From contig CM120641.1 of NCBI GenBank assembly GCA_051362555.1, positions 7,626,001 through 7,690,000 of the forward strand: a stretch of 64,000 bases of DNA, given 5' to 3'. A program made the translations under genes and the position numbers. Within the stretch, counting starts at the first letter, position 1; each line of letters begins with the position of its first letter. The DNA is from Lingula anatina (taxonomy: Eukaryota > Animalia > Brachiopoda). The notes below the pieces were generated by a model. It searched no databases and was not told the DNA's origin. It saw only the letters and a program-made list of their open reading frames with translations. Shown here one piece after another: positions 7,466 through 30,661 of the stretch.

Positions 7466-7559
7466 TAGTTGTATTGATGCGAAAATGCCCGTGAAAGACA
7501 AGCAAATGGACTTTGCTTTGAAATAGCTCCAGATCTTGTCTGCAAAAGCATTCAGCAGC

Positions 7560-7564
<5 letters not shown>

Positions 7565-7616
<52 letters not shown>
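7565..7616 (+). repeat. Poly(A) homopolymer (~50 nt)
   Basis: Uninterrupted A run visible in the sequence. Confidence 0.95.
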
Positions 7617-7618
<2 letters not shown>

Positions 7619-9966
7619 CATGATCAGCTCTGGTAGGCCAATAAGACAACAGCCAGTAAGAATTGAGGTTTTGTCAGTGTCCTATGAGAAACAGCCAAAC
7701 AATATAGTAAAATCCAGTTTCCAGATAAACATCAATGCATGAGAACATGTCGCATCAAAGGAAAGTGGTATCTTTACACAAAAGAAGGAATCTGCAAAAC
7801 CAACTAGAAAGCAGCAGCTGCGCAGGTAGGCAAGAGGGATAAAGCAAAAAAAGTCGAGGAAGCAGCCTCTTTTCCTAGTTGACAGTGCCAGTGATCATTC
7901 CTAGCATGATTTGGCCAGACAAGTCATCTCACTACCAATAGAAATCCATAAGGCAACTACAGTACATAGTTCTCATTGTTTCCAATGGACGAACAAGCAC
8001 AAAACATCTACAGTATATGACAACTACAGGAAAATTCGATCATCTTGGAATCATCTTAAAACACCTTATGCCTTTGTTATTATCCTCTGTCACCAGAATA
8101 ACACCGGAAATTAATTACGTACTTCCAAAATAGTAACAATTGATGTATTACAATCATATATGAAAGTCCAACAGCTCAGAAAGGTATATTATGCCATAAT
8201 TTAAAAATAGTGACAGGCTCTTGGATATGAACAACAGAATAGCTAACAGAAGTCACCATAAAGTCGAATCAGCCATGCTGGATCTCTTGCACTTAATCTC
8301 TGTCTGGCAAAACGATTTTATAATTGTTATATAACATATTTTTGCACAAATTTGACTTCAAGACGTATACAAGACATAAGCCTGTATTGGTGTTGGAGCC
8401 TTGTAATATTTTCTTTTTGTATTATATCTCAGAAGAGATAAGACACGACTTCTACAACCCAAATGATAAGAAACGATGTATAACATGCTAGTGTAAGAGC
8501 AATAGCTTCAAATTGATGAGTTATGCCTTACCCGTATTTCAAAATTGTGACTGGCGGCCATCTTGAATTTGAGGATCAAAATGGCTACCAATTGTCTTCA
8601 AAGCACCAGGTATGTGTTCTTTACCTTTAATTAAGCCATTTAGATCTCTGACGCTTGTTTCAAGCTCTTTAGGATTTAATAAAACATTTTGTACTAATTA
8701 GACTACATGGCACTTAAGCCTACATGCATATTGATTTTGGAGGCTAAAATAGTTTGTACTCACATTTCATGAAACAGATAATGTATTCTGCACCAGAAAA
8801 TAATATACAACGACTATTACTCATTTACAAAGATGTAATACATATAGTTTCAAAATAGCGAATTATGCCCAATTTCAAAATGGTTTTTGGCGGCCATCTT
8901 GGATTTGAGGGATAAAACGGCCACCAATGGCCTCCATAATGGTAAAATGTGTTTTTTTTGCTAATAATATAGTCCAATAGCGATGGTACATAATGAAAAA
9001 TTGCATTGAGATATATTTGAATACGGGTTATCAATATCCATGGTTTTGCAGCGTTCACACATATCTTGGTAGGCACTTAAAACACCCTCTTTGTTCCTTC
9101 AAATCACCTACTATCACCATAGCAATATCAAAAATGACTTTTGCAAAATAGTAAGAATCGATATATATATATATCAAGTATACAGTAGTAATAAAAATTA
9201 AGTTTCCGTTGTACGACGTTTTACAAACGTCAGAAACGTTTTAATCCCTATCCTATGAATAGAAGGGGGCGGACAAACAATGGAGAGCTGTCTAATCCCT
9301 TCAAAATTCGAACGCCAAAACACAATAGTTTAGACGTAATAACACACAATACCTTAGGCGAGTGAACCCCATGACGCCTGTTTCTGTGGTCCAGCGCGAG
9401 CGCGACAATCCGCTGTGACCAGGTGTAATTAACAGCAGGATACATCAGCCAGAAGGTGCCTATTGTTTGTTGCGGCGATAGGATTATAGCTTTAAGATGC
9501 TAGAACCCATGCTAACGCGTGCCACTCCCGTGGCCACCTATCCTTTTGTTCACTAGCTTGGCACGCGCAGCAGATCATGTTTTAATTAAGTGTTGCAAGA
9601 AAACTGCTAGTTTAATTTAGTATCAGTTATTTTATTCAATATGAAGTGTTCTGTGGTCAAAAATTGAATTTGATATACATGTATCAGCAACGTACATCAG
9701 CATGATCAACAAATCACCCCGTCTCAAAAAGTTTAAAGATGCTCCATACACAAATTTCAATCATCGCTACCTGTGTAAAAATAGATAACTGTTTAGAAAT
9801 AACAAAGAAAGAAACATTATTAAAACAATTTTTTCACATTACAAGCTGACGTGTTGCCTCAATTACTACATTAAGTTACATTTTATATAAAATAATAGAG
9901 CGAATCCGTAAAAGGATAATAATAATAGAAAGTCTTAATAAATAAATAAATAAATAAATAAATAAA

Positions 9967-10134
9967 CAGGCCCGCAGCCAGGGGGAGTTCGGGAGGTTCG
10001 AAAGACCCCCCTTTTGCTGAAAAAAGGTCCACTCTGGGTAAAATTTGACATAATTACATGGGTATTTTCCGGTAAAAGGTCCACTTTGTCAGAAAAGGAT
10101 CCCCCCCCCTTTGAAATTGCTGGCTACGGGCTTG
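9967..10134. mobile_element. MITE with CAGG termini and 5-bp TSD (hAT5-like), copy 1
   Basis: CAGGCCCGCAGCCAG...CTGGCTACGGGCTTG, with ATAAA on both sides. Homologous to 30662-30828. Confidence 0.8.
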
Positions 10135-10789
10135 ATAAATAAATAAATTATTTAAATAATAAAGTAAATAATAAGATGACATTAAGAATCAAATAAAAAA
10201 GATAGATAGAAATTAGATGATATAAATCATTAAATAAAAGATAAATTATTTTAAATAATTTCATAAGTAAATTTTGATTTAATAATTAAATGAATAAATC
10301 TCTGTGAAGTCTACCCATTATCAGGGTCACTGATAGATTTTCACTACTTGCCAGTATAGACAGATATGTATCTGTTTATTTGATGGGACTTTTTTGCACG
10401 CGCGTTAGGGGAACGAGCATATAAACTAATTTCTTTTAAGATTAAAGTGAGTGTCCTATCATTTGAAAGCCAACAAAATATTTCATTCCACATTAGAGAA
10501 ATTAGCCTCATAATTACATTTGTAAATTTATAACCGGGTGTACGTAACTCTTCGCTGTTCAGTAACAGTTATAAAGGAAAGTTAGATTTTGCTTGTATAA
10601 AACACACTTTTTATTCTGATAAAAATCGACTGCGCACGAAGCATAATGATATTAGGCTTTCGATGATGATTGTGCATGAAACATCAAGTCAATTTTCCTT
10701 TTCATAATAGTGCTGGGCACCCAGGTTGTAGCGGACCACGAGTAATTGAAGCAACACCATTGGATAATACTGCCGTTTATTCACGCAGT

Positions 10790-10862
10790 GAACAGAACTG
10801 AACAGAATCTGAACAGAAACTGAACAAAAACTGAACAGAAACTGGACAAAACTGGTGAAAAC
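10790..10862. repeat. Minisatellite, ~10-bp unit (GAACAGAACT-like), ~6 copies
   Basis: gaacagaactgaacagaatctgaacagaaactgaacaaaaactgaacagaaactgg. Confidence 0.8.
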
Positions 10863-13800
10863 TATAAAAAGAAAAGAAAAAGAAAAAAAATAATAACAAT
10901 ACAGTGAAATAAAGATAAATAAACTAGATATACTAAACAACTTAATTCATGTGATCTTAACAACAAATAATTGATCTTTGCATGTGTGTAAGTTTTTACT
11001 ATTTATTATTTAATTTTAAACACTCACACTAGAACAATATCCAGACTCGCTTTCTCCGCTAGTAACTGGCTGCTCAGATACGGCCATAGAAATCTGAGCT
11101 GGTACTGTAAATTTATTTGATAACAAATATACATGTGCGTGTTGGTCATGAAAATGTCACACCCATACTAACATAAATTTTAATAAACACGATGCTCATA
11201 ACTTATGTTACTGATTAAACTTAAGTAAACTTATGTAAACTTTTGTAAACTACACAAAATATCTCTATATAAGTGAATTACACTTAATTAAAACACAAAT
11301 TTTACACAATCTACACGTAATATCGTAAAATACCTCCACTCTGCCAGTAAGTATATAAATGACCGCGCAGAGTACATGCAACATCGGCTTTTATACAGTT
11401 CATCACATGACTAGATGAATAGATGTTACTTAATATTGAGCAGTGTTCTAGTGTCTTCTCTAACGCAATATAAATAAACATAAGAACAGCGTGGAAAATA
11501 TAAAATAAAAATGATAACGTATATAATTTCTGCCGTGTCGGCAACACAGGTGTTGAATCTTTTACTCGACGTGCATCTCCTAATATTGTATAGGCATGAT
11601 TTCAGGTTGTTCTGGAGCGATGACGATTGCGTTCAAAATGGGTTGTTTGCAGCATAAGTGATGTGAATAAACCTAGCTTACTAATTAACTATTACCAAAG
11701 TAAAGCAGGGCTTTAGGTTTATCAGCCTAAGATTTATTCAATATGGGCAGTTAACTTGGACCAGTCTTGTTTCATTAACTTTGCGAATGAAAGCCTCCGT
11801 CGTTAACGTAAATTTCCAATATGATTTTACATCACTTATCTGATTTAACAATCTTATTGTTTAGGTTTTGTTTAAGGTTGCATGAGAACAGATAATGATC
11901 GAGTTTAACAATAGATTGAGGGCTATAGTAAGTCCTTCCTCTTTGGGCGATGTCTAAGACTGTTAATTCAACGTACATAAACATGTAGTGTGACCACACT
12001 GTCAGCCATCCCCCTTGTTGCACGTTGCAAGCGATTTGTCTCATAACTATGACAAGGCGTTCTTTTTTCTCGTTGTTGTTTTAAAACGGACCACTTTGTT
12101 AAGGCTAATTGCTTAGCTCATTGCGCGTCATATGTAAACGCTAAGATATGAGTGTTATACCGAGTAGTTGATTGTTTTGCCCGGGCGCCGCACTTATGCT
12201 TTCTTACTAGAGCGATCTAGAACAAGTCGCTAGTTTGCCCTGTTTGTAACTGTAGCAAATATGTTCGACATGCCGTTTCTGCACGACAGCCGGAGACACA
12301 GTTATTGTATAAGGCATGGTTTAAGCTTGTTCGAGAGATAATAACAGTCGCGTTTAACAAAAGATAGTAAGACCCCCTCCTCTTTAACTGATGTCTTACA
12401 CTGTTAATATTGACCGCACTTTCATATATTATGTAATGCACTGACAGACTTTCCCCTGTTGCACGTTGGCGTTGGATTGTACTTGTGCCTCTGTCAATGC
12501 ACCTCATTTAGTTTAAATATTTTTACCGCATAAATCTTTGTGGTTTAGAGCTATAAGTTTAGTAGTAGGAATAGGATGGTTGGACAAAAAGCTTCTAGTC
12601 AACTGGCTTAGACCTAGGGTGTGATGCTGCTATCATCCGAGAAAACACCTACACTGAATCCTCTTCCTGAAATCCCCCTAGCTGAAACAAAAAATGCCCC
12701 TTGAACCGGTCCATTTTTACAGCGTCGAATCATTTTTGATATCATTGAGCGTCTTTAAACGAAAGCTTTTAAGTGACAAAAACAGAACCGTGTGGTGATT
12801 GTTTATTAAAGCGTAGGTTTATTCATCATGATCTATTTTGTAAACAATACATGCCTAAATTTTACTTGGATTGATCATCGTCACTGTTTGGCAACTCGCC
12901 TGTAATGCGTGCTGAACGACAGACAACTTATAAATATTATCTGTGTTACTGTGTATTTGACCAAGTTAAAATAGAACGGTGTCGGTGATTTAATCCATCG
13001 AACATATTTATATTTCTTCTTTTAAAACCACTGTTAGGTTAACATCAAGTCAAATTAAGTAAAGCTAAGTAAAGCCTGTTTCTAGTTCATCCACGCTATA
13101 AATACATGAAGGATAACAAGTCTCTGTAGCCAATTAACTTTCACAATGCCCTGTGCTTTAGAGTCCCATGTTATACAAGCAAATGAGTATGGCCTGAGAG
13201 AAATATAAATATGAGGCCGTGTATGAAGATGTTTCAAATAATAAGAATCAAGAATTTAAACATGTTAGGTACATGCACATCATTTAATAAGTCATTTCAC
13301 AAAAATGGCATCTAATTTTTCAGATAAACCTCCACTTTTATCTATCTCAACGCCTTGTCTGATGTTTACATGTAGGCGGTATACTCCAATATTAATTGCG
13401 AACAATATCAACAGCGACTCGAGATCGTTGCCTGTCTTTCACACTTTTACACAAACACATGAAGGGTTAATAAAAGGATTCGCGTTGCGACATCTATCTC
13501 TTTCTTTCGAACAACCAAATTAAGGGCTGACCCGAAGTAAGCTGGCATAACTAATTTCTCTTTGACTGTACAAGGGTATATTGTAATTACTCCACTTGGT
13601 CGCCTCCATTGTCTTGTAACAGTGACAAAGAATGTGTTTTCACACGCTAGTTTACATAACTCCTTTGCCTTGTGTCTTTATCAAGGTTATAATCAGTTTG
13701 AATAGGTTGTCTTGCCTCACTTAAAAAGGGAGTTGTTCTTCACACTGTTTTTTGCCTAGCTTATGCTAACCTATTTTGTACAAATATGGTTTTAATAAAT

Positions 13801-16006
13801 CGCCAAAATCATGACACTAGTGAACATTGTGTATCAAACGTTTTGATACGATTAAATAAATGTGCAAGAAGGATTACGGAATGAGTTACTATTTACCTCC
13901 CCCCCCCTCCCCCCCCTCCCCCCAAAAAAATGCTCTTTTGATTTCGAAATGAATTTGTTTTTAACGTAAAGAAATCCAATACCCCTTTTACGACTCAGTC
14001 ATTGTACAGCATGTTGTAATCGATATTTAAAAAAGTTCATAACTTGGACCGGAGTTTGATATACAGTGTACTGTAGCTACAATGGCATTCCTCAAGTTGG
14101 GTCTGCTGGGGGAGGGGGGCATTTAAATGATAAACGAAGAAGTCCACCTGTAAACAGCAGCGGTTTAAATGATCGCTATCTCGGTTCCTTTTTCTTTGAC
14201 AGCATCATAGAAAATGTTAAGGGAGAAAGTCACACATACCCACGGCGTTGTTTTGTCTTCAGTATTTCCTCCTTCCTGCTTACTGCAATTATTATCGTCA
14301 ATTAATTAAACCGAGAAAGCAATTAAATGATGGCACATTGAATATAATCACTATGTGCATTTCGCTGAGTGTAAACAAGATCTAGCGAAACATTTTATTT
14401 CAAAATAAATTTATATGTGATTTCACCTCTGTCGTTTGTGTTATTTCAAACAAAACGATTTCCTGAAAGACCAACTTTAAAATGTATGTCTATTCAGCAA
14501 AATAATGTAATTTAATACAACTATGAGTAATGTATTTAAACCACGGCCGTATATGCGATGGCCATGTGGGATTATAATTGCATATCTTGATGCAAAACAG
14601 TCTATCGTTTCTCCCACCGCAAGTCCCTTTAATTAATGTATTATATTACTCTTTACCCTTTTTATTTGACACTGTCTCTGTTTCTCTCCCCTTTTCCTTT
14701 CTCTTGTAAGAAGGAGGGCAAATAATTAAGCATTCAAAATATGCATCACCAATCTTCAGAAAAGAATGAGTGAATGAACCAATGGGCTGGCCCACAACGT
14801 CCGACACAGCAGAATAAATTAAATAACAGCTTTCACAGATTTAACTGCAGTTAGCTGTATAGCGTCACTATATACATAATCCGCTGCACGCGCGAAGCTG
14901 TTGAACAAAAGGATAGTTCTCTATGGAAGACCTTTTGTTTACATAAGTACTTTAAGGGGGCGTGCCTAACCAGGCGACAAGAGGATTAGGCTAGTCACTA
15001 TATTCCGTCAAATTCGTTTAGCGACCCTATCATTATCGCACTCCCTCTATTGTATTTTCTGACGTTATAATTGTATCTAATCTTCTTACGTTAGATGGAA
15101 TAAATGCACACATACATAATCTTATGACTGTAGTTAGACCTAACGCTTCAAAATTCAACATAAAATAGCAAAATTATGTCTACTTTCAAAATGGCGGGTG
15201 GCGGCCATCTTGGATTTGAGGCACAACATGGCCACCAATTGCTTCCAAATGATCAAAAATGGGTTCCTTGTCCCTAATTTAGTCAGGTTTGATAATCTAT
15301 ACATGTTTCTAGGCCAAAAATTAATGGAAATATGAAATATTATATATTTTGGCACATAATTTGCATAATTTATGCTAATTAATGTATCGATAGAGGGCGT
15401 CTCTTTGGATAAAAAAATTTCTTTTGGCCCAAGGAACATTTATGCCAAGTTAGACATTTGTACTACAAAATGCAGCGTTTGGCCATTTTTTGGTCCTTAA
15501 CAAGCCTACTAACCTAGCTGTCTCTGGGGAAATACTCGTCCCACTCGTGAAGCGCATCATGAAAATGATCGTAGGTGAGGGAAACATATAATTAGCAATT
15601 ATAATTGTCGTCTTTTTTAATGTTAAGTAATGTTAGCACATATTGTACACAGCAAAATAAGATTTTAAAAGGAGGATAAAACAAGCCTGAAACACGTGTT
15701 AGGCGAAAATTGCGGCTTATCTTGCGTAACACTTCCGGTAAAATGCAATACTTCCGGAAAGATGGACGTTTTAGCAGATGCCCCTAACAATCCGACGATA
15801 TCAAAGGTTTCCATTTGCTGTATTTTAATCAATTCGACCAAACGGACATTTCCATGAAATTAATTAATTAATCTTGGTCGAATTGTTTGGCATATTACCG
15901 TACTGTTTCTTTCCTTTTATGATAATGTTACGAGTGAACAGACAACTGTTATCAACAAAAACTTTGTTTGTAATGTCTGGACACCATCTGGTCAATTTTT
16001 TTTCAG

Positions 16007-19000
16007 GTGATCCATGTGAAAAACAGAGCTCAAATTATAGATGATGCCTTCAACATAGCAAAGTAAGAATGATGAGTAGATATTTAAGATGATTTGGTTC
16101 TTTTTTTAAGGAAGAAAAATATATCCCAGCAAAATGTACTGTTTTTTTGTCTTCTGTAAAATATGAAGTAATATTTTGTGTTTTCTTCTAAAATATGAGG
16201 TCCTCCTTATATTTTATTGTGTTATTCAGCTGTTAGAGAGTTTTGTATTTTTGAATGTCCTGTATGTAATACTCAAAAGGTGAATATAAAATGCTAAATG
16301 TGTGTTCTTTTAGTTCTGGCATTGATCCAGCTGTGGACATAGAGCTAGCTATGCAGACGACCAAGTATTTATCCAAAGAGACAGAGTACATCCCGTGGGA
16401 GGCAGCACTCTTGAATGTTGGTTACTTGGACATTATGATGAGCAAAACCCAACACTATGGAAACTACCAGGTATATCTTTCAAGTTCTCTTCTGCAAGTT
16501 GCGGGATTACAATGAATTGTTGCTTTTGAAATGCCAACAGGTGTTATCATTGTTGCCTTAAAAGAGCAATTATTTGGAAAACCAGCCAATATAAAATGGT
16601 AGGAACAGTCAATACAATATGAGAAATTGGTGTGAGGTTTACCCTCAGAAATCATGAACTCACATGCAACCAAATGGAAATGTTTCTTTATTCACTTAAT
16701 ATTTGAACAGGTTTGGTTGTATTCCTCATTTTTAGTGCCATGAAATTATCCAGATTTATCTAGTATTTCAAAATCATTGATGTACAAATGGATTTAGCTT
16801 AGCATGTATATATCTTATTTCCATAGTGAGTTTGAACAGTGAAAGTACCATTTTTGGTGAGACATTGCCTTAATTTATCTATTAATCTTAATATCAATCT
16901 TGTGATTTCCAGAAGTACATGTTGCACCAGATATTACCACTGTACAACAGGGTGGGATGGGAGGATACTGGAGGGCCTGGAGAGCACCTTGAACAGTAAG
17001 GATTTATAATAAACTACATATGTCTGTCTTGTTTGTCATCTTTATAATAAGATGTTGCCACGCTGTTAAAAATATATTATGAATGTTGGGTTTCATATTT
17101 TGTTTTTGTTCTTTCTTTTCAACTTTTCCTTTACTTGACATATCTCTTCAGTTACAATAGGATCAATGCTTTGGGTAGAGCCTGTGCCTATGGATACCAA
17201 CCTTGCCTGGATAAAGCCACAGAGATGTTCAACAGTTGGATGAATTCAGCAAACCCTGATGAAGATAACCCGTAAGTAGGGTCTGACTGTTTTAAGTAGT
17301 TTTTGTGAAACTATTGAATTCAGTCTAAACCTACCACAGAGCATTGTGTTAAATGCATTGTGGTATAAATGATCAATTTAAACTAATTGCAATCAACTTT
17401 TGAAACAAGGGGGGATTGAGCTTTGTATCTGATTATGTGTGATTATATATCATCATGTATATATTAATAAATTGAAGATTAGGGCCCAGGCTAACAGTTA
17501 GGTCAAATAACAGGCAAATTGTTTTTTCTTTTTCTCTCAGAATTCCACCAAATTTGAAATCTTTGGTCTATTGCAACGCCATTAAGAAAGGCACTTCCCA
17601 GATGTGGGACTGGACATATGAAAGATACAAGAAGGCCAATGTGGCATCAGAACAAGTCAAGCTGCTGTATGGACTGTCTTGTAGTTCTCAGACTTGGATT
17701 CTTAGCAGGTGAATGTCTCTGTTGGTTTTTTTCAAATTTTGTTAAGTATCGATCTACTATATTGCAGTAGAAGTTTGTTAATATTAATGCATGCATTTCT
17801 ATAGATATGAGTAATGATGAATAGGAGGGTCAAGAAACCCTCAAATTTATATGCATTTGAAAATGATAGACGTAAAGAGTGAAGATATGTTTAACTTTAT
17901 TTTTCTACTAGAGTTTGCTTGTTTGGTGATCAGGACACTTTACAATCATAAGAATTTTTTTATTTCAAAAGCTTTAACATTAATGAAAATTCGATGGGGA
18001 TAGATTAGATGATACATGATTTTGATATTCATCAGATATCTAGAGTATGCCATAACTTCAAGTGAGATTCGTAAACAAGATGGCACCTCAGTAATTGTGT
18101 ATGTTGCAAGGAACCATATTGGAAGAGGTCTTGCCTGGGACTTCATCAGGTCTAAATGGAACTTTTTAATGAATGAGTAAGTAGATCTGTGATATGGGTG
18201 TAATTTTGGAACTACTTGTTGTATTGGTAATTAACAAGCATGTGTGATTCAAATGAATATTTGTGTTTTGTTCATGGGGCCATTTAAATAAGACTTATCC
18301 ATTTAATTTGAATATTGATAATAATATGTTTTGTCATAGTTAATTGAAGTCATTGCTATTAATTGTACTATGTTCATAACACCGGATTGTTTGCATGGCT
18401 TTACTTTTGTCTTAAGTGGTGAAATTCAGTAACTTTCGATGTTCAAAATTCATAAAATCCAAGTGTCGTTATAAAAAGGTTAACCTCTTCATTACAGTTA
18501 TGGTGGTGGAAGCTTCTCTTTCTCCAGTATCATCAGAGGAGTTACCACTCACTTCAACACACAGTTTGAACTAGAAAAAGTAAGTCAATTTTTTCATCCA
18601 TTCTCTGTGAGCACTGGAAGTACTCATGGTGAAACCAGGAAATAGTTGGAATAACATTTTTATACTCCAACATAAATGATGCAGTGAAGGAAATAGGAGG
18701 GATATTGAACTTGTAAAACTAAAATAGTCAAACTTGGAAACGTATGTTGAGATATTAAATTTACATGAATAACCAGGTCTTTTCATTATCAAGGTGGTTG
18801 TTGTGAAATGCTCTGAAGAAAACACAGCAAAAAACATACTGATAACAAGAGTGAGAGAGAACAAATGATAAAAAGTTATAATTATGTTATAACATTTATA
18901 AGAATTGTAATCTTATTCCAATTTTAGTTAAATGAATTCATATCTAGCCGTGACAATCTGGGATCAGGTCAGCGTGCCTTTGAACAAGCTGTGGAGAAGA

Positions 19001-19070
19001 CACAGGCAAATATCAAGTGGATGGAGGCCAATGAACAGAAACTGGGAGATTGGCTGGCAGCAAATGTAGA
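16007..19070 (+). CDS. ANPEP: M1 aminopeptidase N-like, upstream unit: last 8 exons (ERAP1-C domain); catalytic exons not in window
   Basis: GT-AG exons 16007-16062, 16314-16470, 16913-16995, 17152-17271, 17541-17708, 18036-18176, 18498-18579 and 18928-19070 join in frame. Peptides include NRAQIIDDAF, ETEYIPW, NLKSLVYC, IRKQD, LAWDF and QAVEKTQANIKW. Confidence 0.9.
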
Positions 19071-19526
19071 GTAAGTGGCATCAGAAATCATCATTCCTTC
19101 TATAATGTAACTGTATGATTATGAATATAATTTCATTGAATTTTGTTTTATTTTAGTTTAAAAGGATTTCAGTTGTAAAATACAAAGCAAATTCAATTTT
19201 GAAATATTAAAATGTTTAAGATGAAAAGGTTTTAAAGATGATTAAATTGTTAAAACAGACATTTTTGTATTAGTGTATTATTATTATTCCTAAGTGCTGT
19301 TTTAAATGGTTAAATGTGCATGAAATGAAATATATTGAGCTAATGTAGTATTCTCTATCAGAGTTTTTGTTCAATTTCTTTTCTTTTGGTACGTGTAAGC
19401 AAGAAATTTAAATGCAGTAAGATTTTCCCGTTTTTTTGTACAATCAGTGATCTGGAATTTGGTACTTTGCAACAAAGTCAAAAAATGTCATGTGCTGTTG
19501 AACTTGATTGTCTTCTTTTTTAACAG

Positions 19527-22500
19527 CTCTACAGATTTGGTCACTAAACCAACTGATGTCCGCCTGCCTGCTGACCTCATGCCTTCCTATTATAAGCTGG
19601 AGTTGCGACCTGATATATATCAAGAGGAACCAAAAGATTTTAATTTCAGTGGCAAAGTAGACATAACCATGCATTGTAATAATGCCACAAATGTTATCAA
19701 ACTGCACATCAAAAGTTTGACCATAGATGGAGTGGAATTGGTTGATATGAATGGTTTGCCAGTGCCATATACAAATACTGAAGAGGACAAATCAAGAGAG
19801 TTCTTCATTGTAAATCTACCACAGATGTTGGTTCAGGGAATGAATTACACATTAACATTAAATTTCTCAGGACCTCTGAGGGATGATCTAGTAGGGCTTT
19901 ACTGGAGTCAATATTTCAGCAGTATGAAGAATAAGACTGTGTAAGTTTCGTTCATTTAAAGATACCATGGCTTTAATTTGGTGACACTTCAAACATTTCA
20001 ACATAGTTTAGATATTTACAAATTCTATTCTGGCTATGGGCATTGGAGTGGCATGATAGATATTCTTAAATGGCAGATTTGTTTGTATAGCCACTGCCCA
20101 GATGTAGCCCACAGATGTCCCTGTTTTGATGAAACTGTAATTAAAGCTGTATTTTAAGTGTATTTAGAGAGGTCATATCATATGAAATCCTTACTGCACA
20201 TGCCTCAGTTAATATAGAGGGCATTCTCAACGAATTAAGCCAGGCTTTACAAAGCCGGTGACCTAAAAATGGCGGACGTACATGAAAGAAAAACCGCCTA
20301 ATCTTTTAATAGTCTCTCCGCCTCTCACACGCCTCCCCACACGTCGTCCCTGCGGGGTACAGTAATTAAATCTCGGTTCCGAACATTAATATTTCCGTGA
20401 ATATCTCTGGTGATATTATCTCCATAGATAGTCGATTCATTGCTGCTCTACGGGCCAAATTATTCCTTTTTCGTCTCTGTTTTCAAAGATAATAGAACAG
20501 AAGAGCTTTTTTCCTTCGATCGCCTTCAGCCGCCATGCTTTCTTCACCACGAGTTTAACTGATGAGCATGCGCACTTAATATTTCTCAGGTAGCTTCCGC
20601 ATGGCGAATGGAGACACGATTTAATTACTGTACCCCGCAGGGACGACGTGTGGGGAGGCGGAGAGACTATTAAAAGATTAGGCGGTTTTTCTTTCATGTA
20701 CGTCCGCCATTTTTAGGCTTTGTAAAGCCTGGCTTAATTCGTTGAGAATGCGCTCATAGACTATTAATGTAGATAAGTGTGCATTTTTGCAATCAAAAGT
20801 GGTATTTTATCCTTATCAATAGCCACATAGCCACCAGTCAACTAGCTCCAACTGATGCAAGAAAAGTTTTTCCCTGTTTTGATGAGCCTGCCATCAAAGC
20901 TGAATTTGAAGTGATTTTACTTAGGAAAAGCCACATGAAATCACTTTCAAATATGCCTCAGCGCTTTAATCAATCAAGGTGAGTGAACAGCAGTATTCTT
21001 TGTTGCATCTAACACCTAATGACCTGGCACTTCACTTGGTAACCTCTAAATGGACACCAACGTTCTTTACAATATTGAATATTTGGTGATGTCAGTTTAA
21101 CTGTTTTGATGTAAGAAAGACCACCTCTGAATACTTAGAGACTTTGCTTAAACTTAACTTTTATTACACTGGTTACACCTGGCCACCTTTGTCACATGCT
21201 GTTTTTTCCAGTTCTATTTTGTGTTCTTTCTTTCTATTTTACAGTAAATATATATGTATATGTGTGCTATCATATTTATATCTCCTCTATCCCATGTAGT
21301 ATAAGAAGCAATTAAAGAAATCAAATAACAAACAATATATATATATATATATATATGGCCAGTTAGGTCCACTTGAGAATTAATACAATTTTATTTGAAC
21401 AAATTAACTATGCTATAAAAAAAGTAACCTATAATAATTGATAATAGTTCTGAACTTAAATATTACAACAATAACGTATTCTCTGATTATTTGTATTTTA
21501 TCTTACAGAGGAGATGACTGGTATGCAGATCACTATGCTCCAACAGTCAAAATGTCCACATATCTCCTTGCATTTGTTGTCTGTGATTTTGACTATGTTG
21601 AAAACACAACGGCTAATGGAACAAAAGTAAGATAATCGAATAGATTATTGAATTTAGCACAATTTAGATATTCTAATTGTTCATTAATTTATGGGGAAGC
21701 TGAGGAGGATGTTGGGTAGAGATTTTTTCAACATGATTATTCAAGTCATTGTTTGGAAAAGGGCATTTAGAAATGTTAAAATTATCCATGATTTCATTAA
21801 AAAAAATAAAAATGAAAATATTTGTCTCTCAGGTCAGAGTTTGGGCAAGAGCAGAGGCAATGAACCAGACACTATATGCTCTACAGGCAGGAGTCAGAAT
21901 ACTGGGATATTTTGAAAGATACTATGCCATTGATTATCCTCTTCCTAAGCAAGGTATAAACAATCTGAAGTTTTTTCTGCAATCTTCAAATTTATTTTTA
22001 AATAACTGAATTAATGCTCTAATCAATAAGCAGATGGACAAACAATTCAGCATTTTAGATGATAAATTGATTTGAAGTTGTATTATTTTTAAATAGAAAA
22101 CATGTTGCGTATCTCTAGTAAAAATGTTAATAAAAAACTTAATTGTTTTTCACATAGACATGATAGCTATCCCAGACTTTGCTGCTGGAGCCATGGAAAA
22201 CTGGGGTCTGATTACTTACAGGGAGACGGCTCTGCTTTATGACCCTAAAGTGTCGTCTGCTAGTAATAAACAGAGAGTGGCAGTTGTTGTGTCACATGAA
22301 CTGGCCCATCAGGTTTTTATTAATTGTCTTTTTAATTATTTTTAAGATACACATGTATATTTTATTTCACCAACAAAACTGTCATATGTCCCATCCATTC
22401 TGCTAGAGAAATGCTTAACATTTCATACCAGAGAGCAATTGTCACAGACTTGAATTCATTTTCAGTCATTATTTCATGTAATCTGCAAAATCTGCAAAAA

Positions 22501-25500
22501 TTAACATTGAAACGGGAAGATAACTGGTAAATGTTTTTCTTTATATTTCATTGAATGTTAATGATATAAAACTAAAGGAAATTACCTTTTCCTTCCAGTG
22601 GTTTGGCAACCTGGTAACTCCACTGTGGTGGGATGACATTTGGCTTAACGAAGGATTTGCCAGCTATGTGGAATACCTGGGAGTGGACTACATAGAGCCA
22701 ACATGGAAAATGGTAAAATTTTGCTGTTACTAAGATATGAGCAAATTCCTGAGAAAACTGTAACAGTTCTATTTAAACAATGTGTTTTAATATCTGCAAT
22801 CTGTGTATTTTCCTCAACTGAAGATCATTTTTCATGGGTCATATATAGTGTCACTTTCTCATAATATTGTGAGGTTTTACTTATAACACAATTTTGCATA
22901 CCATTTACAGATGGAACAGTTTTTAGTTGAAGATCTTGAGTATGTGTTCAAATTGGATGGCCTTGCTAGCTCACACCCCATCTATGTTCCTGTGGGACAT
23001 CCTGATGAGATCAATGAGATATTTGACAGGATCTCTTATTCTAAGGTATGGCTCTTTTTGTCACCCATATTGTATATGTTAATTCACCACATTAGGTATG
23101 TGCAGACAGGTTAAAAACTTAATCCTGCCCTTTCTTAGAGATCTGGCTCATGTAGTGTATTAAAGATCAGAATGATTTTAGTTAAAAACCCCACCAGATT
23201 GCAGTTCTTCTCAGCTTCATCTTTGAATCCAAAATTATTCATCTTTGATTGAAACTGGCCATATTGCCTTTATGAGACAATATGCCCAGATATACTTAAA
23301 TACTTAAATATAAGAAATTTTTTACATTTCAGGGAGCCTCAATAATCAGAATGATGAGCAGCTTTTTAACAGAGGACACTTTCAAGAAAGGATTAACTGT
23401 AAGTTTGAGTAACAGAAAGAAATGAATAAATACAACAAGTAGAATACTATAGTAAGATACATTTCAAGTGTACATCATTTCCTTTTTGGCTGTATCTAAT
23501 TAGAAAATTCTTTGTTTAATTTAGTTTAGGTTTTGTTGGAATGTTAAGAGAAAATCTTATGGTCATACCTATGTAATTCCAAATATATTATAAGCTGAGA
23601 AGCATAGAAAATCTCATTTGGTTCACTTAATATTTGCAGCTTTATCTCAATAAGCATGCCTATGATGTCGCCACCCATGATGATCTGTGGAATGCCCTGA
23701 GCACAGTATGTTTTTTACTGTTGAAATATTTGAAATATACGAATACAGAATGATTATCCAGTGAATATACATAAATACACATTTGAAAGGAATAGTTTAT
23801 TTAATTGAAACATACTTGATAAATATTTGTACCATATACTCCTTGGTTATTAAAATTCAACAAGATTATAGAATTATGGACAGGATAAGAAAGAACAGAT
23901 ATTAATGTACCTTCTAATAAGAGAGTTTGTGAAAAAATTGATAATGTCAGTTTATAATGGAGATCAGGGTCAGTTGCAGTATATTTATGCCATCATTTGA
24001 AGAAGTGGGGGTATATTGCTTTGCACATGTCAGTCTGTCCTTAACCAGAGCCTGTTCATAAAGAAAAATTTGGTCCATGGTATTCATATTTGGTAGAGAG
24101 GTATGTTGATTTTGAGGTCAGTACTGGTAGGTCAAAGGTAAAGGTCACAGATATGGTACAGAATTTATACTTAAACCACTTTCAGCAAACTGCTTCAGAG
24201 GGGAGGGCTATTGATGTTAAGAGCATAATGGACACTTGGACACTCCAAATGGGCTACCCTGTTGTCAAGGTGGATGTCCAGACAAGGAATGTCACCCAGA
24301 TGCACTTCTTACAGGACCCCTCTGCTACACCTGATCCCAAATATGACTCAAGCTTTAAGTAAGTTCATTGCAGGCATTCATAGTTTGATATTACACTATA
24401 TATACATAAATGTAGGTATTTTCGTGTTTATTGATTTTATGCAATGGCCAACAAATTCAGTGCCTTCTTGGAAACTAGAATGTTTTCAAAGTGTCTTTAA
24501 AATGTACAGTTGCCCATACTTGATTAGTTTATTTATTCAGTTAATCACATTAAAAAAACACATCTGATCTTGAAAGATGTATTGCATGATTATGATAAAG
24601 AAAGTACATACATAACAGCCTTTTGACTCTAGTTTGAATTAAACTGACAATATATTTTCCACTAGTTACAAGTGGTATGTTCCTCTGACACTGACTTCTT
24701 CACAACACGTAGATTGGAATAGCCAAAACATTATTTGGATGAACTTGACTGATGGTAAGTACAATGGACAAGTAAATTGCTTGATATCTTTACAAACATA
24801 ACCTGTCATATGTATTTTAAACAAATGGACACAATGGATGCAATGTGTAACTTACATTATTAGTAATAAATAATGCATATTCATGCATTACTAGTTGTGC
24901 AACTGTAGGTCATTTTTCAAAGCACTCGCAGTCATATGTAGATTTCCAAAATTCTCAAAGAACATACAAACTGGGGTTAAAAATATCAGTTTATTAAAGA
25001 GACCACCTCATTAATAAAAGCTGTTGAGGTGTGATTTGTTCTGTTGCTATAGTTACCCTGACATCAGCTGATATGGGCAGTCCTGATCCTACCAATGGTG
25101 ACTGGGTTATTGCCAATCTTCAGCAATTTGGATACTATAGGGTGAACTATGACCTTCAAAACTGGCAGAATATTCTAACGCAGTTGTCTGTTAACCACGC
25201 AGTAAGTATTGGGGAAAATTAACATCAGTAAATTCTTGAGAATTTTATAAGAAAGCCTGCAGAATTACAGTATTAGTTTGGGTTACCTTTTTGATATTTA
25301 GTGTAGAATTTCTTTTTTAGACACTATTTATCGATGCTGCAATTGTATATAGAAAATAATAAATCAATTTCTTTTTGTAATAATAAATATAAAAAAGCAT
25401 ACAAATATCAACAATAATTTACTTTTGATGTATCATAATACTTTGGTTTAAATTTGATTGATTTAAGATAGTTCTCTCTGAGACAGTGTTAAACTTCTTT

Positions 25501-28500
25501 TTTCAGGTGATCAATGTCAAAAATAGAGCTCAGCTCATAGATGATGCATTCAGTGTGGCTGGGTGAGTAGAAAAAAAAGTAGTATGATTTTAATGAAAAA
25601 TGACAAATTATATTTAACTGAGATCTGCAAAGTAACTGTTCATATTCTGCTTCAAGAATAGTACATAGGTTGATTACTAGTATATGACCATTTTTTGATG
25701 ATTATAAGGAAATAAGAAATTGACAAAAGCGAATAAATTTGATGTTGTAAGCATCACATGATTGTACCCTAGGGGTTGATGATGTCGGCATAAGCTTACT
25801 ATGCAAGAAAATATGTTTCAGCTCTGGAATTGACCCTGATATAGATGTGAAGTTTGCAATGAAAACAACACTCTACCTAGTAAATGAGACAGAATACCTT
25901 CCTTGGAATTCAGCCATCACCAATTTAGATAGGGTGGACCTGTTGTTGAGCAGCACTGGTTACTATGGTTTCTATCAGGTAAGATTTGCTGGAAATACTG
26001 GTTGATATGGTGATTATTGGCTATCACGGTCAAGTTGGCAAATTGACATATTTAAACAATTATAGAAATCTTATGTTACTTCTGAGTATCAAGACAAGGG
26101 AGCTTAAAGAAATTTAGTTTTTAGTTATATTTTTAACTATGTTTGAAAACATAATGAAATAAAATGATTATCGTCGTTAAAATGCCAAAATAGGAACTTG
26201 GTTAAATCAATAGTTGATTAAAATAAGCAAATGGCGGTTTGAATTGAATGTGGAATTTATAAACATGAAATATAGCAATATATTATTAATTTGTTTTCAA
26301 ATTTTTCATTACAGAAATACATGCTGAAGCAGATTCTTCCCCTGTATGAGATGGTAGGCTGGGAAGACAATGGTGATCAATTAATGCAGTAAGTACAGTC
26401 TGATGGAAGTTGTCAAAAATTATTATGATAATTTAAAAAAACAACATATTTGCCTGTTTATGATTATTTAGTTTGGACATACAGAAGTAGTAGTTGGTAA
26501 TATTTCCAAAACAAGAAGAAAACTGAACTATTCTTCTCCTTGTGCTTTTTCCTTGCAAATTTTGCTGGGCAATAAATGCATTTTGGGTTGAGCATTGCAA
26601 TATTCAAACAGTGCATTGTTATAAATTGTGATGCATATATATGGAAAACCGGTTACTTGGGGTTTAAATTATTCTGGTTGTAGATCATAGGTGAAGAAGA
26701 TGGCATGTGTATTTGAATTCAATTGTCACTTGTCAAAAAGAATGGCATAGATTTGTAAACATGCTCATGATGATGTGCATACATATGATGGTGTTGTAAG
26801 AGTCTTGTCTTGTCATCCTAGGTACAATCGTATTAATGCTCTGAATAAAGCTTGTTCGTATGGACATCAGCCTTGTCTGGACAATGCTACAACTCTCTTC
26901 AATACTTGGAAATTAGAAGTAAATCCTGATGAAATTAATCCGTAAGTAGCTGCTATTTCAGTGAATGTTGATGTTGGTTTTTTTATGAACAGAGAATGGC
27001 ACTGATAAGTTTATAAAAGTGTCTTTCAAAATAAAAATGGGAAATGAATTTAGAGTAATCTGCTATTGATATTAAATCACCTAGAAGATAAATAAATTAC
27101 TTGGATATATAGATAACTGATACAAAGCTTCCTGAATATGTTAGAATAATGCAAATTAGATGCTATTTTCTTTCATCTGTCTTGTGCATGAAAATCTTTA
27201 CAATGAATATGTGCAGGATTTCAGTAAAAAGTTATCAAAAAAATTATGTTTAGAATTTCAGTATTTTTCCAGCCTCCTTTCATGGACATTTTTGTAAAAT
27301 ATTTCAATATCATATTTGAAATTGTTTCAGAATCACACCCAATCTTAAATCCACTGTGTACTGCAATGCCATTGAGAATGGAGGTCAGGAGGAATGGGAC
27401 TGGATGTATGAAAGATACAAGAAGGCCAATGTGGCCACTGAACGAAGCAAGCTGTTAGTAGGACTGTCGTGTAGTAGAGAACCTTTTATTTTAAGCAGGT
27501 ATGGAGATAATCTTGTATACAAATTATTATGTACAGTGCTAGTTAATTGGCATGGATTATGTGGTATGTTTTTCATCTCCTGGACCCAGTTTCACCGAAG
27601 TACTTAAGACCAACATTTTGGTCATCTTTGAACCAACATAAATCAGTGGAGGCCACTTAATGAAATTTTGCAACTGTTTCATAACAAGAAAAGAAACACC
27701 AGTATTTAATACATAGATTCATTATTGTAGTGGATAGCTGAATATTCTGTCTTAAGTTGCAGTTAACCAAAATTTAGATTTGAAATTCTTTTGTGACTGC
27801 TCCATTAGGTGAGATTTAGGCTATTTCTTAAGTGGGTGGATAAAAATGAAGAGTTTGAATTATTGAATACCAAAATTAACAATCATTATTGATATTATAC
27901 AGAATATGTAGTATTTTTTCACCATTTTATTGCACAATTAAAAAAAGAAAAGAAAAGAAAATAGAAGGAAAATAAATATGAAAAGAAATAATCTTTATCT
28001 TTCTAAAATATGTACCTGTCTTGTTTCAGATATTTGAGTTATTCCTTGAACAGTGCTGAGATCCGTAGGCAGGATGGCCCTTCAGTGATAGGGTACATAG
28101 CAAGGAATCCTATAGGTCGTCTGATGGCCTGGGACTTCATGCAGTCCCAGTGGGACAAAATTATGGAAATGTAAGGGATTTTTGTGTAGTTCTTATCTGA
28201 GACAGTGTGGCAAGAATCATCATTAGGCTTTTATCTTAAATGTGCTGTCAATTCTATGTCGGTAGTTTGAAAGAGTTAAAGGAAACATTATCAACTAACC
28301 ATTGTATGAGACTTTCCAAGAAAGAATTCAGATTTTTCTTTTAAAAACATGGACATTTGGTCAAAATCTTTGAGGTTACAATGGAGCTTTCTTATTTTCA
28401 AAGGAGACATATTGTACCTTCCCTGGGTATAAAAAAGGCACATTATTAAGACAGATGGGTATAATGCAAGACAATGAAATGAGCTAAAGTCAAACTTCCT

Positions 28501-29554
28501 TAGTGAATTTCAAAATGAATGCTAAGGCTCCATTGTTTGGAGCCTTTGAAAGCCTACTATGCCTTGCTGGACCCTACTATGTTGTTTCTCACACCAGCAA
28601 TACTGTTATTTACTTGGACTTTTGCTTGCAATTTTTCGTGAGAAATATTGAACAATCAACAATAAGGGTCTCACAGTAAATTTGTGAAAGTTGTAAGGTC
28701 TCCATGTCAAGTGGACCTGGTGTGCTTTATAATAAAATCTAAAATGGTTGAAAATCATGCCATCTTCTTGATAATCGGATCTGTATCTTGATTGTGAATT
28801 TTAGATATTACAAGGTATATTTGGAATTATGTTTTATGAAAAATTTAATACAAATTAAGTACAATATTTTGTTTTATTTAATGAAAAAACTTAGAACTTG
28901 TGTTATCTGATTGCAGATATGGCAAGTCAACCTTCTCCTTTCCTCGCATTATAAAGGGTGTCACAAGTACTCTTACTACACCCATAGAACTTCAACAGGT
29001 AATTGTACTCATTAATTTAGTTATCTTCGTAAAGTTAATGTTTACTGGCCCAGTAGTTAAGTAGTTCTCATGTCGATTTACAAAATTAACTAAAATAATT
29101 AATTGCAACTACAAGTAAAGTGTGCATCATGCAGTTATAATTAGCATTTATGAATATGCATGTTGCTTTTAAGCAGGTACACGCTCGCACACCCACACAC
29201 ACACACACACACACACTCTTCCTTGACACAATGGGCAGCATGAAGTATTGAGATAATGCTTTTTTGATGATTTACCTTGAACATGCAGGTGGATGAGCTT
29301 TTGTTATTGGTGTTATGTGGTGTTCCCTTATGCCATACTTTATTTTCCAGCTGACCATATATAATCTGACCATACATATAAGATCTTATTTTGATGCATT
29401 TCAGGTTGAAGCATTTGTAAAACGACAGAGCAACCTGGGCACAGGAGAGAGAGCATTCCAGCAAGGCATAGAGGAGATCAAAGCCAATGTAGCATGGATA
29501 GAGAAAAATGCTGAAAATGTTGGAAACTGGCTTAAAGAAAACACCTCAACTTAA
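19527..29554 (+). CDS. ANPEP: M1 aminopeptidase N-like, complete downstream unit (20 exons, ~900 aa), no signal anchor of its own
   Basis: Exons: 19527-19940, 20823-20978, 21509-21626, 21833-21953, 22158-22312, 22599-22712, 22911-23045, 23333-23398, 23640-23705, 24186-24358, 24666-24754, 25053-25201, 25507-25562, 25822-25978, 26315-26388, 26822-26941, 27331-27498, 28030-28170, 28917-28998, 29405-29554 (TAA). Motifs VRLP, FPCFDEP, KMSTYL, GAMENWG, HELAHQW, WLNEGFA and ISYSKG are intact. Confidence 0.95.
20085..20208 (+). pseudogene. Degenerate duplicate (pseudo-exon) of aminopeptidase exon 20823-20978
   Basis: Reads [38 protein letters not shown], against the functional [45 protein letters not shown]. 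Confidence 0.85.
20217..20755. mobile_element. Intronic fold-back MITE with ~140-150-bp inverted arms
   Basis: Arm 20217-~20370 is the reverse complement of ~20619-20755 (GAGGGCATTCTCAACGAATTAAGCCAGG.../...CCTGGCTTAATTCGTTGAGAATGCGCTC). ATA flanks both ends. Confidence 0.9.
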
Positions 29555-29954
29555 TATTGAATGATTTACACATGCATCTTTGTAATCTATGTAAAATATA
29601 TAGCATGAAAAACATAGGAAATCCTGTGGTGACTTGATAAAAGGTGAAAAAAAATTAATGGGTTTGAATTAGATGTACATAAATTTATTTTTAAAGATGA
29701 CTTTTATACATGAATATCATCATGAAAAAACAATGCAATATGGGTATATTAACTTGAACATAAGTGATTAATGGTTTTTACTGATATTACATATTTTATA
29801 TTTACACTATTCCAATGAAAAATACATAAATAGGACATTTAAACCTACACAGACAGTTGATTTTTGAAAAGAGTTATGTTCTATTTCTTAATGAAAGATA
29901 TTCATATATCAAAGAATTTTTGATGTAAAAATAGTTGTAATTAAATCTTTTAGC

Positions 29955-29960
29955 AATAAA
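29955..29960 (+). promoter_or_regulatory. Candidate polyadenylation signal of the aminopeptidase gene
   Basis: AATAAA ~400 nt after the stop at 29554. The AT-rich context makes it uncertain. Confidence 0.4.
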
Positions 29961-30661
29961 AAAATGTATACTTATGAATCAGAAATAACGATTTGTCTAA
30001 AATTAGATTTATCTGAAATTGTGTGCTGTGAGAGTATAGTAAACTGAAAAGGAAAAAAGCCTAAATTGGTGCTGTTTTATTATGTTTGTGCCATAAAATC
30101 ACTGTTAATTAACAAATTACATGTATATGAATAAGAATAGATCTTTTAATTCCTCCCTGATTTCGCTATTTATGTTACTTTTTATGTGACTTAATACAGA
30201 GATTATGTAAGTAAATAGACACAAATTACTGTGGCCTCTGTGAATAAGCAGTGTGGACATGTATCTAAATCCAAGAAGCAATAAAAAATTTGCAGTGACA
30301 CTGTGTTTAGAGTTCACTATTAGCCAATTAGTTAACCATTGTTCCATGTACCGGTAACTCTTTTCTCCTTTAGCTGCATGATATCACATCTTGATACATG
30401 AAATACATCAGCTGAGGTTATGCACGTTTAACCTGACCTTCATTCATATAAACCTCCAATATCTAATAGAAACATAATATATAGATATAATTCTCACAAG
30501 ACAATTTTCACAAGACATTAAAATTCCTTTACCAAATATAAGCTCGCTCTTGGGACAGGCTTCCTTTCATCTTCAGTGCCCAACTCTCAAATGAGAGTTA
30601 TACCAGTACAGCTCGCATTGCGATGAGCGACTTATTGTTATATAAATATTATTATGATTAC

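What the first reader, a model, noticed from the sequence alone, without database searches (positions are those of the whole stretch)
18928..19940. Two M1 aminopeptidase units appear fused in frame into one polyprotein
Seen: the last exon of unit 1 ends ...WLAANV-GA|GTAAGT, a consensus donor at 19071. After 456 nt, the acceptor TTTTTTAACAG|C at 19527 completes codon GAC and reads [15 protein letters not shown] straight into the N-domain of unit 2. Unit 2 has no ATG, signal peptide or anchor exon in that gap. Paralogous exon sizes match (56, 157, 83/74, 120, 168, 141, 82) while the proteins are clearly diverged, so this is an old internal duplication. Known: APN is normally one catalytic unit per chain. 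Inference: a tandem enzyme with at least two catalytic units (roughly 1800 aa or more).
Basis: partly seen in the sequence, partly recalled or inferred. Interest (0 to 1): 0.75.

Follow-up and report, generated by a model that had tools for sequence, protein, structure and literature searches.

The report
Chain of fused aminopeptidase enzyme units
In a gene that likely belongs to a lamp shell (Lingula), RNA reads show one aminopeptidase N unit spliced in frame into the next, so the gene likely makes one very long peptide-trimming enzyme, possibly with five catalytic units, a design common in invertebrate gene models but not found described in the papers searched.

Summary
The fusion is real. 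46 RNA reads in three runs join 19070 to 19527, and the 456-nt intron had no coverage in the four runs laid. The 28 exons form one open frame of 1217 aa ending at TAA 29552. Unit 2 is a complete M1 aminopeptidase with GAMEN and HEXXH-18-E; only the last 316 aa of unit 1 lie in the window. Unit 1 is 98% identical to part of a fragmentary Lingula anatina RefSeq model that holds four partial units. The reads also show two further unit-to-unit junctions, both found in that model. So the chain likely has about five units (~4,500 aa, inferred), not two. The design is not unique: 139 of 160 fetched long relatives have units joined by short linkers, across seven animal phyla (a biased sample). Units group by lineage, and one clade of all terminal units is rejected, pointing to repeated duplication or gene conversion. 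Ten literature searches found no description. Protein-level evidence is lacking. Look-ups in this scan's own notes showed no earlier finding of it.

The parts
16007..19070 (+). Unit 1, last 8 exons only (16007-16062, 16314-16470, 16913-16995, 17152-17271, 17541-17708, 18036-18176, 18498-18579, 18928-19070): 316 aa of domain IV (ERAP1_C)
   Evidence: Exon model, GT-AG, open frame; Pfam ERAP1_C on 3 of the 4 unit-1 exons scanned; all 7 introns read as joints; 98.4% identical to XP_013400083.2 aa 1747-2062
19071..19526 (+). Junction intron, 456 nt, phase 2, GTAAGT...TTTTTTAACAG; unspliced it would give Glu-stop
   Evidence: 46 joint reads in X7, X8, X9; depth 0 in bins 19071-19476 in 4 of 4 runs
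19527..19940 (+). First exon of unit 2: about 11-aa Thr/Pro-rich linker, then Peptidase_M1_N (domain I)
   Evidence: Pfam PF17900 E 3e-20; best solved-structure hits are aminopeptidase N; covered by reads in X7, X8, X9, not in X1
20823..29554 (+). Remaining 19 exons of unit 2 (the terminal unit, 901 aa in all), ending in TAA at 29552-29554; no hydrophobic C-terminal tail
   Evidence: Pfam M1_N, Peptidase_M1 and ERAP1_C in order; joints
22158..23045 (+). Catalytic exons of unit 2: GAMEN (22187), HELAH (22295), WLNE glutamate (exon 22599-22712), SYSKG tyrosine (end of exon 22911-23045)
   Evidence: about 3-fold read depth and loose ends into unit-C sequence show near-identical copies elsewhere
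29555..30400 (+). 3' UTR with AATAAA at 29955 and 30280
   Evidence: Read depth in X7 up to the end of the stretch laid; motif scan
1..16006 (+). Stretch upstream of unit 1's first visible exon: no M1 exon, rich in repeats; a likely intron of 16 kb or more, or a break
   Evidence: tblastn blank; pattern search blank; RT ORF and repeats

Best explanation
The window holds the 3' end of a spliced gene in which one zinc-aminopeptidase (M1/APN) unit runs in frame into the next through a short linker; it likely encodes one chain of about five units (~4,500 aa), predicted to work as an extracellular peptide-trimming enzyme with several active sites. SHOWN: the in-frame splice, no read-through of the intron in the runs laid, intact catalytic motifs in the last unit, and expression of two more unit-to-unit junctions. 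INFERRED: the order A-B-C-D-E, with window unit 1 as the C-terminal part of D and window unit 2 as E; origin by repeated internal duplication of a 'stalk end + ectodomain' module, with recent duplication or gene conversion keeping parts nearly identical; one N-terminal type II membrane anchor or signal for the whole chain, as in the Owenia and mollusc two-unit relatives, since the last unit has no C-terminal anchor; units acting side by side without being cut apart, which raises active-site density per anchor and may let units differ in substrate preference.
For: Joint reads 19070->19527/19529: X7 19, X8 8, X9 19; intron depth 0 in 4 of 4 runs. One open frame of 1217 aa over 28 exons, all introns GT-AG. 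Loose ends from the same exon continue into two other linkers (92 reads at 19070, 26 at 19056). Both are unit-to-unit junctions in RefSeq XP_013400083.2 (aa 2063 and 698), which has three intact GAMEN/HEXXH cores. In X7, depth at listed variant sites is 46-67 on unit-1 exons 16314-18176, 14-40 on unit-2-only exons and 69-77 on catalytic exons, as expected for about 2, 1 and 3 near-identical copies. 245 short junctions (25 aa or less) in 139 of 160 fetched proteins over 1500 aa; 348 of 390 cores keep both motifs. Logan contigs of 6-11 kb carry unbroken 1,600-2,700-aa multi-unit frames. No hydrophobic 19-mer above 1.08 in the 1217 aa.
Against: The N-terminal 585 aa of unit 1, including its active site, are not in the window. 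The 16 kb upstream lacks exons, while the 27 visible introns are 156-882 nt. Short reads cannot phase the three junctions onto one molecule, and the RefSeq model is itself fragmentary. Run X1 has 6 reads of the other junction, none of the window's junction and none on exon 19527-19940 (0 of 6, p 0.03 if 50:50), although it has a few reads on later unit-2 exons. In unit 2, 23 of 37 listed read differences change an amino acid against 6 of 25 in unit 1 (p 0.004), which could mean relaxed selection on the last unit. No protein-level data.
Confidence: 0.75

Rival explanations
1. The fusion is real, but the chain is shorter (2-4 units): the three junctions belong to different gene copies or to haplotypes made by unequal crossing-over (one going C->D, the other C->E), and window unit 1 is simply unit C.
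For: Window unit 1 is 98-99% identical to RefSeq unit C, no more different than alleles. RefSeq goes C->D while the window goes unit 1->E. X1 shows only the C->D junction.
Against: X7, X8 and X9 each express all three junctions, and unit-1 exons have about twice the depth of unit-2-only exons in X7. That is simplest if the copies lie in cis, though pooled or heterozygous samples could also give it.
Confidence: 0.2
2. The chain is a true polyprotein: it is made as one precursor and cut at the linkers into separate ~900-aa enzymes.
For: The linkers are short, exposed, low-complexity segments; brush-border sucrase-isomaltase is cut between its two units (recalled, not from a call).
Against: The three Lingula linkers have no dibasic or R-X-X-R site, are Thr/Ser/Pro-rich like the APN stalk, and linker sequences are not conserved across taxa.
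Confidence: 0.15
3. Two neighbouring single-unit genes: unit 1 ends at the Glu-stop at 19069-19074 and unit 2 has its own 5' exon; the junction is chance or rare read-through splicing.
For: An in-frame TAA follows the exon at the place where a unit normally ends. 24 of 277 database junctions are long and hydrophobic and look like merged gene models.
Against: Zero intron depth in four runs, 46 joint reads and no other 5' exon among the loose ends shown. 13 of 14 phase-2 introns in this gene put a stop right after the exon, so the stop is a property of the donor consensus.
Confidence: 0.03

Closest known systems
RefSeq XP_013400083.2 'putative aminopeptidase-2', Lingula anatina, 2308 aa (P0170)
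   Same: aa 1747-2062 are 98.4% identical to window unit 1; it has several M1 units in one chain and both extra junctions seen in the reads.
   Different: Fragmentary: four partial units, cut at both ends. It lacks window unit 2, which is only 60-67% identical to any of its units, and it lacks the 19070->19527 junction. An automated model.
Mammalian aminopeptidase N / CD13 (M1 family; PMC5385526, passages read)
   Same: Four-domain ectodomain with HEXXH plus a distal Glu; best solved-structure hits of the first unit-2 exon are APN.
   Different: One ectodomain of about 930 aa per chain, with a type II anchor and dimerisation through domain IV; here ectodomains are joined head to tail in one chain.
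Uncharacterised multi-unit M1 gene models: Owenia CAH1790157.1 (2 units), clams, abalone and cephalopods (2), bees, wasps, ants, ticks, spiders, rotifers (3), Ostrea and Mizuhopecten (4 or more)
   Same: Same architecture with short linkers (median 8 aa over 198 junctions) and mostly intact cores.
   Different: The units are not positional orthologues across phyla: they group by lineage. Insect forms often have a hydrophobic C-terminal tail, which the window's last unit lacks.
Tandem-domain ectoenzymes: somatic ACE (2 x M2), carboxypeptidase D (3 x M14), sucrase-isomaltase, maltase-glucoamylase, lactase-phlorizin hydrolase (recalled, not from a call)
   Same: Several catalytic units of one family on one anchor, made by internal gene duplication.
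   Different: Other enzyme families; they are biochemically characterised, while no tandem M1 enzyme was found characterised in the papers searched.

Membership tests
M1 aminopeptidase (APN-like), unit 2 | HEXXH-X18-E zinc motif | tested here: met
   HELAH...NE at unit-2 aa 317-340
M1 aminopeptidase (APN-like), unit 2 | GAMEN exopeptidase motif | tested here: met
   AGAMEN at aa 280; motif pair named as defining in PMC13127027 (passage)
M1 aminopeptidase (APN-like), unit 2 | Domain order M1_N, Peptidase_M1, ERAP1_C | tested here: met
   Pfam on single exons, in order along the gene (10 of 13 exons scanned had a family)
M1 aminopeptidase (APN-like), unit 1 | Intact catalytic domain | tested here: inconclusive
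   Not in the window; the near-identical RefSeq unit C has GAMEN and HEXXH-18-E
M1 aminopeptidase (APN-like) | Zinc-dependent aminopeptidase activity | not testable with these tools
   Needs an enzyme assay
Canonical APN/CD13 | One ectodomain of about 930 aa per chain | tested here: not met
   Spliced in-frame junction between units
Canonical APN/CD13 | N-terminal type II membrane anchor | not testable with these tools
   The 5' end lies outside the window, no genome is held, and the RefSeq model lacks its N-terminus
Tandem-domain ectoenzyme (ACE / CPD / sucrase-isomaltase kind) | Two or more homologous enzyme units on one spliced transcript, in frame | tested here: met
Tandem-domain ectoenzyme (ACE / CPD / sucrase-isomaltase kind) | Duplicated exon-intron structure | tested here: met
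   8 paralogous exon pairs with matching size and phase
Tandem-domain ectoenzyme (ACE / CPD / sucrase-isomaltase kind) | Full-length multi-unit protein present, with more than one active unit | not testable with these tools
   Needs proteomics and assays
True polyprotein (cut into separate proteins) | Conserved processing site between units | tested here: inconclusive
   No dibasic or R-X-X-R site in the three Lingula linkers; linkers vary across taxa

The most novel reading that the evidence does not exclude
Multi-unit aminopeptidase N chains are an unrecognised class of giant invertebrate ectopeptidases that arose again and again by internal duplication in at least seven animal phyla. This Lingula gene would be a five-unit, ~4,500-aa (~500 kDa) example, kept uncut, whose units have diverged in substrate preference and act together as a peptide-trimming array, with a fast-evolving terminal unit.
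Probability: 0.35. Interest if true: 0.72.

Novelty: new variant of a known kind. Interest (0 to 1): 0.52.

Why it matters
Long multi-unit M1 entries in databases are easy to dismiss as merged gene models. Here RNA junction reads show that such a junction is really spliced, and the short linkers, intact cores and long unbroken contig frames in relatives suggest most are real too. That would add M1 aminopeptidases to the short list of enzyme families with tandem ectoenzymes (ACE, carboxypeptidase D, gut glycosidases). It makes clear questions testable: whether units differ in specificity, how head-to-tail units fit with the domain IV dimer of mammalian APN, and why the design keeps returning. 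It also matters for annotation: the donor consensus puts a stop exactly where a unit would end, so gene finders can split such genes. The locus itself is one example of a widespread design, which limits the surprise.

Tried and rejected
No genome is held, so the 5' part of the gene could not be read. No RNA holder was listed by index; nine same-species raw-read runs were offered and six were laid (X1, X2, X4, X7, X8, X9). X4 barely covers the gene. Searches of the window for the upstream exon and for the other linker were blank. A word-indexed protein search with exon 19528-19938 found nothing at 241-2000 aa. A search for longer forms (4040-5000 aa) gave 7 proteins, none labelled Lingula. The protein atlas did not answer. 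Ten literature searches listed no title or abstract on tandem M1 units; passages from four papers had nothing on it; two papers I recalled were not held. Five look-ups in the scan's notes showed nothing that bears on this. No structure or complex prediction was run: two units exceed the size limit, and fragments across the linker would tend to assemble like one monomer. Rejected: the Glu-stop at 19069-19074 as a sign of a gene end; a single ancient duplication preserved without conversion (terminal units as one clade, p-AU 2e-85). The 67-row tree is a quick tree; the careful one did not finish. Physella and Palaemon 'tandems' carry anchor-like sequence in the junction and were treated as probable merged models; they were left out of the 30-row tree along with other rows dropped for speed.
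Full report
OBSERVATION. Exon 18928-19070 ends in GA followed by GTAAGT at 19071; after 456 nt the acceptor ends at 19526 and C at 19527 completes GAC. Joining 28 exons from 16007 to 29551, all flanked by GT-AG, gives one open frame of 1217 aa, while the other two frames have 90 and 107 stops. Eight exon pairs match in size and phase between the units; protein identity over the shared part is 57.5%, with dS about 1.7 and dN about 0.34. Pfam places ERAP1_C before the junction and M1_N, Peptidase_M1, ERAP1_C after it. Unit 2 (901 aa) has AGAMEN, HELAH-X18-E and the SYSKG tyrosine (the catalytic role of that tyrosine is recalled). Only the last 316 aa of unit 1 are in the window; no M1 exon was found in 1-16000.

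THE SPLICE IS USED. On 18433-20172, reads join 19070 to the exon at 19527 in X7 (4 exact plus 15 with an allelic change next to the joint), X8 (4 plus 4) and X9 (3 plus 16): 46 reads, with up to 74 letters on the shorter side. Depth is 0 in all seven bins 19071-19476 in 4 of 4 runs, no start or end pile-up is listed, and no loose end lies before 19527 among the 21 rows shown (5 hidden). The in-frame TAA just after the exon is no sign of a gene end: 13 of 14 phase-2 introns of this gene do the same. Reads continue past TAA 29552 into a 3' UTR in X7, so unit 2 is the last unit.

MORE UNITS EXIST. Reads laid on exon 18928-19070 also leave into two sequences that do not continue in the window: 92 reads at 19070 (X7 34, X8 30, X9 22, X1 6) and 26 at 19056 (the first was searched for in the window and is absent). 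The closest database protein is RefSeq XP_013400083.2 from Lingula anatina (2308 aa): its aa 1747-2062 are 98.4% identical to unit 1, so the window likely comes from Lingula. That model holds four partial units A-D with three intact cores, and its A->B (aa 698) and C->D (aa 2063) linkers are the two extra read sequences. Window unit 2 is only 60-67% identical to any of them, so it is a further unit, E. In X7, depth at listed variant sites is 46-67 on unit-1 exons 16314-18176, 14-40 on exons private to unit 2 and 69-77 on its catalytic exons: roughly two, one and three copies. The simplest reading is A-B-C-D-E with window unit 1 as the end of D, about 4,500 aa. This is inferred: short reads do not phase the junctions, and separate copies or haplotypes remain possible.

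AGAINST OR UNEXPLAINED. The gap upstream of 16007 is at least 16 kb, against 156-882 nt for the other 27 introns; it holds a reverse-transcriptase ORF and repeats. 33 reads in X7 link exon 16007 to an upstream exon like that of unit C, but they could come from unit C itself. X1 shows 6 reads of the C->D junction and none of the window's (p 0.03 if equal), and X1 and X2 have no depth in 19288-19771; depth is low in both. Among the read differences listed (best-supported rows only), 15 of 20 in exon 19527-19940 and 23 of 37 in unit 2 change an amino acid, against 6 of 25 in unit 1 (p 0.001 and 0.004). This fits relaxed or diversifying selection on the last unit; none of the listed changes makes a stop.

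RELATIVES. In a profile-free search of 1.84 billion representatives, 20 of the best 150 hits were over 1,300 aa or matched the query more than once; 19 of them were M1 multi-unit models and one was a spurious repeat protein. A search with a two-unit abalone protein gave 1163 hits of 1044-3324 aa. Among 160 fetched proteins over 1500 aa, 139 have at least one junction of 25 aa or less (245 junctions), while 24 junctions are long and hydrophobic and look like merged models; 348 of 390 cores keep both motifs. This sample is biased towards multi-unit proteins and gives no frequency. Short-linker forms come from molluscs, an annelid, a brachiopod, arthropods, rotifers, echinoderms, a hemichordate and a chytrid fungus (phylum labels from my knowledge). 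Several come from Logan contigs of 6-11 kb almost filled by one frame, which likely are transcripts. Forms of 4,000-4,600 aa exist; the scallop one has 4 cores and 5 ERAP1_C domains.

HISTORY. In a 30-row maximum-likelihood tree of domain IV, units group by lineage: Owenia, abalone, sea star, horseshoe crab and bee pairs at 100% bootstrap, the four Lingula rows at 85/80 (not starred), while clams and cephalopods keep first and second units as older orthologous pairs. One clade of 11 terminal units is rejected (p-AU 2e-85). So the design arose many times or has been homogenised within lineages; the tree cannot tell these apart. In Lingula both old (45-62% in domain IV) and recent (98-99%, C against window unit 1) events are present. 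In Owenia the linker repeats the stalk of the first unit almost letter for letter, which suggests that the duplicated module is the end of the stalk plus the ectodomain.

MECHANISM. Each unit likely folds as a four-domain APN ectodomain and removes N-terminal residues at its own zinc site (family knowledge; PMC5385526 passages). The 1217 aa have no membrane-like stretch and the last unit has no C-terminal anchor signal, while Owenia and mollusc relatives have one hydrophobic N-terminal segment, so one type II anchor or a secretion signal likely serves the whole chain. The linkers lack convertase-type sites, so I favour an uncut chain (inferred). The likely gain is more active sites per anchor and room for units to specialise, as recalled for somatic ACE, carboxypeptidase D and gut glycosidases. 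Tissue and substrate are unknown; the runs are coded.

NOVELTY. The architecture is visible in automated annotations, including a fragmentary model of this gene family in Lingula, but ten full-text searches listed no paper describing it (listings and abstract starts seen; passages read in PMC6795024, PMC12858984, PMC13127027, PMC8002144 and PMC5385526; no supplements opened). Subscription journals were not searched, so absence from print is not established. Verdict: a real, RNA-supported, new variant of a known enzyme family and one example of a widespread, apparently uncharacterised design. Interest 0.52.

Noticed in passing
window 36900-64000: Tandem array of about 20 copies of a ~1377-bp unit, 97-100% identical. 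By eye the unit has two tRNA-like stretches with box A/box B-like motifs, but ARAGORN and Rfam found no gene.
   Followed up: partly
window 2-2923, minus strand: 974-aa open frame with an RVT_1 domain, running off the window start; looks like a non-LTR retrotransposon inside the likely giant intron.
   Followed up: partly
window 33227-34462, minus strand: 411-aa Ser/Thr/Glu-rich open frame with no Pfam match; probably one exon of a neighbouring gene.
   Followed up: no
window 20215-20770: Palindromic, MITE-like element in the intron after exon 19527-19940; heavily covered by RNA reads that run on into other loci.
   Followed up: no
window 3511-4303, 8761-9169, 15131-15511, 5854-6930: Two pairs of 95% identical inverted dispersed repeats (381 and 416 bp) and a 314-bp tandem repeat in the exon-free stretch.
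   Followed up: no
window 19527-19940: 15 of 20 listed read-versus-window differences in this exon change an amino acid, against 6 of 25 in unit 1: possible diversifying or relaxed selection on domain I of the last unit.
   Followed up: partly
window 22158-23045: Reads 92% or more alike to these catalytic exons run on into unit-C flanking exons, although neighbouring domains are only about 52% identical: a sign of gene conversion limited to the active-site exons.
   Followed up: partly
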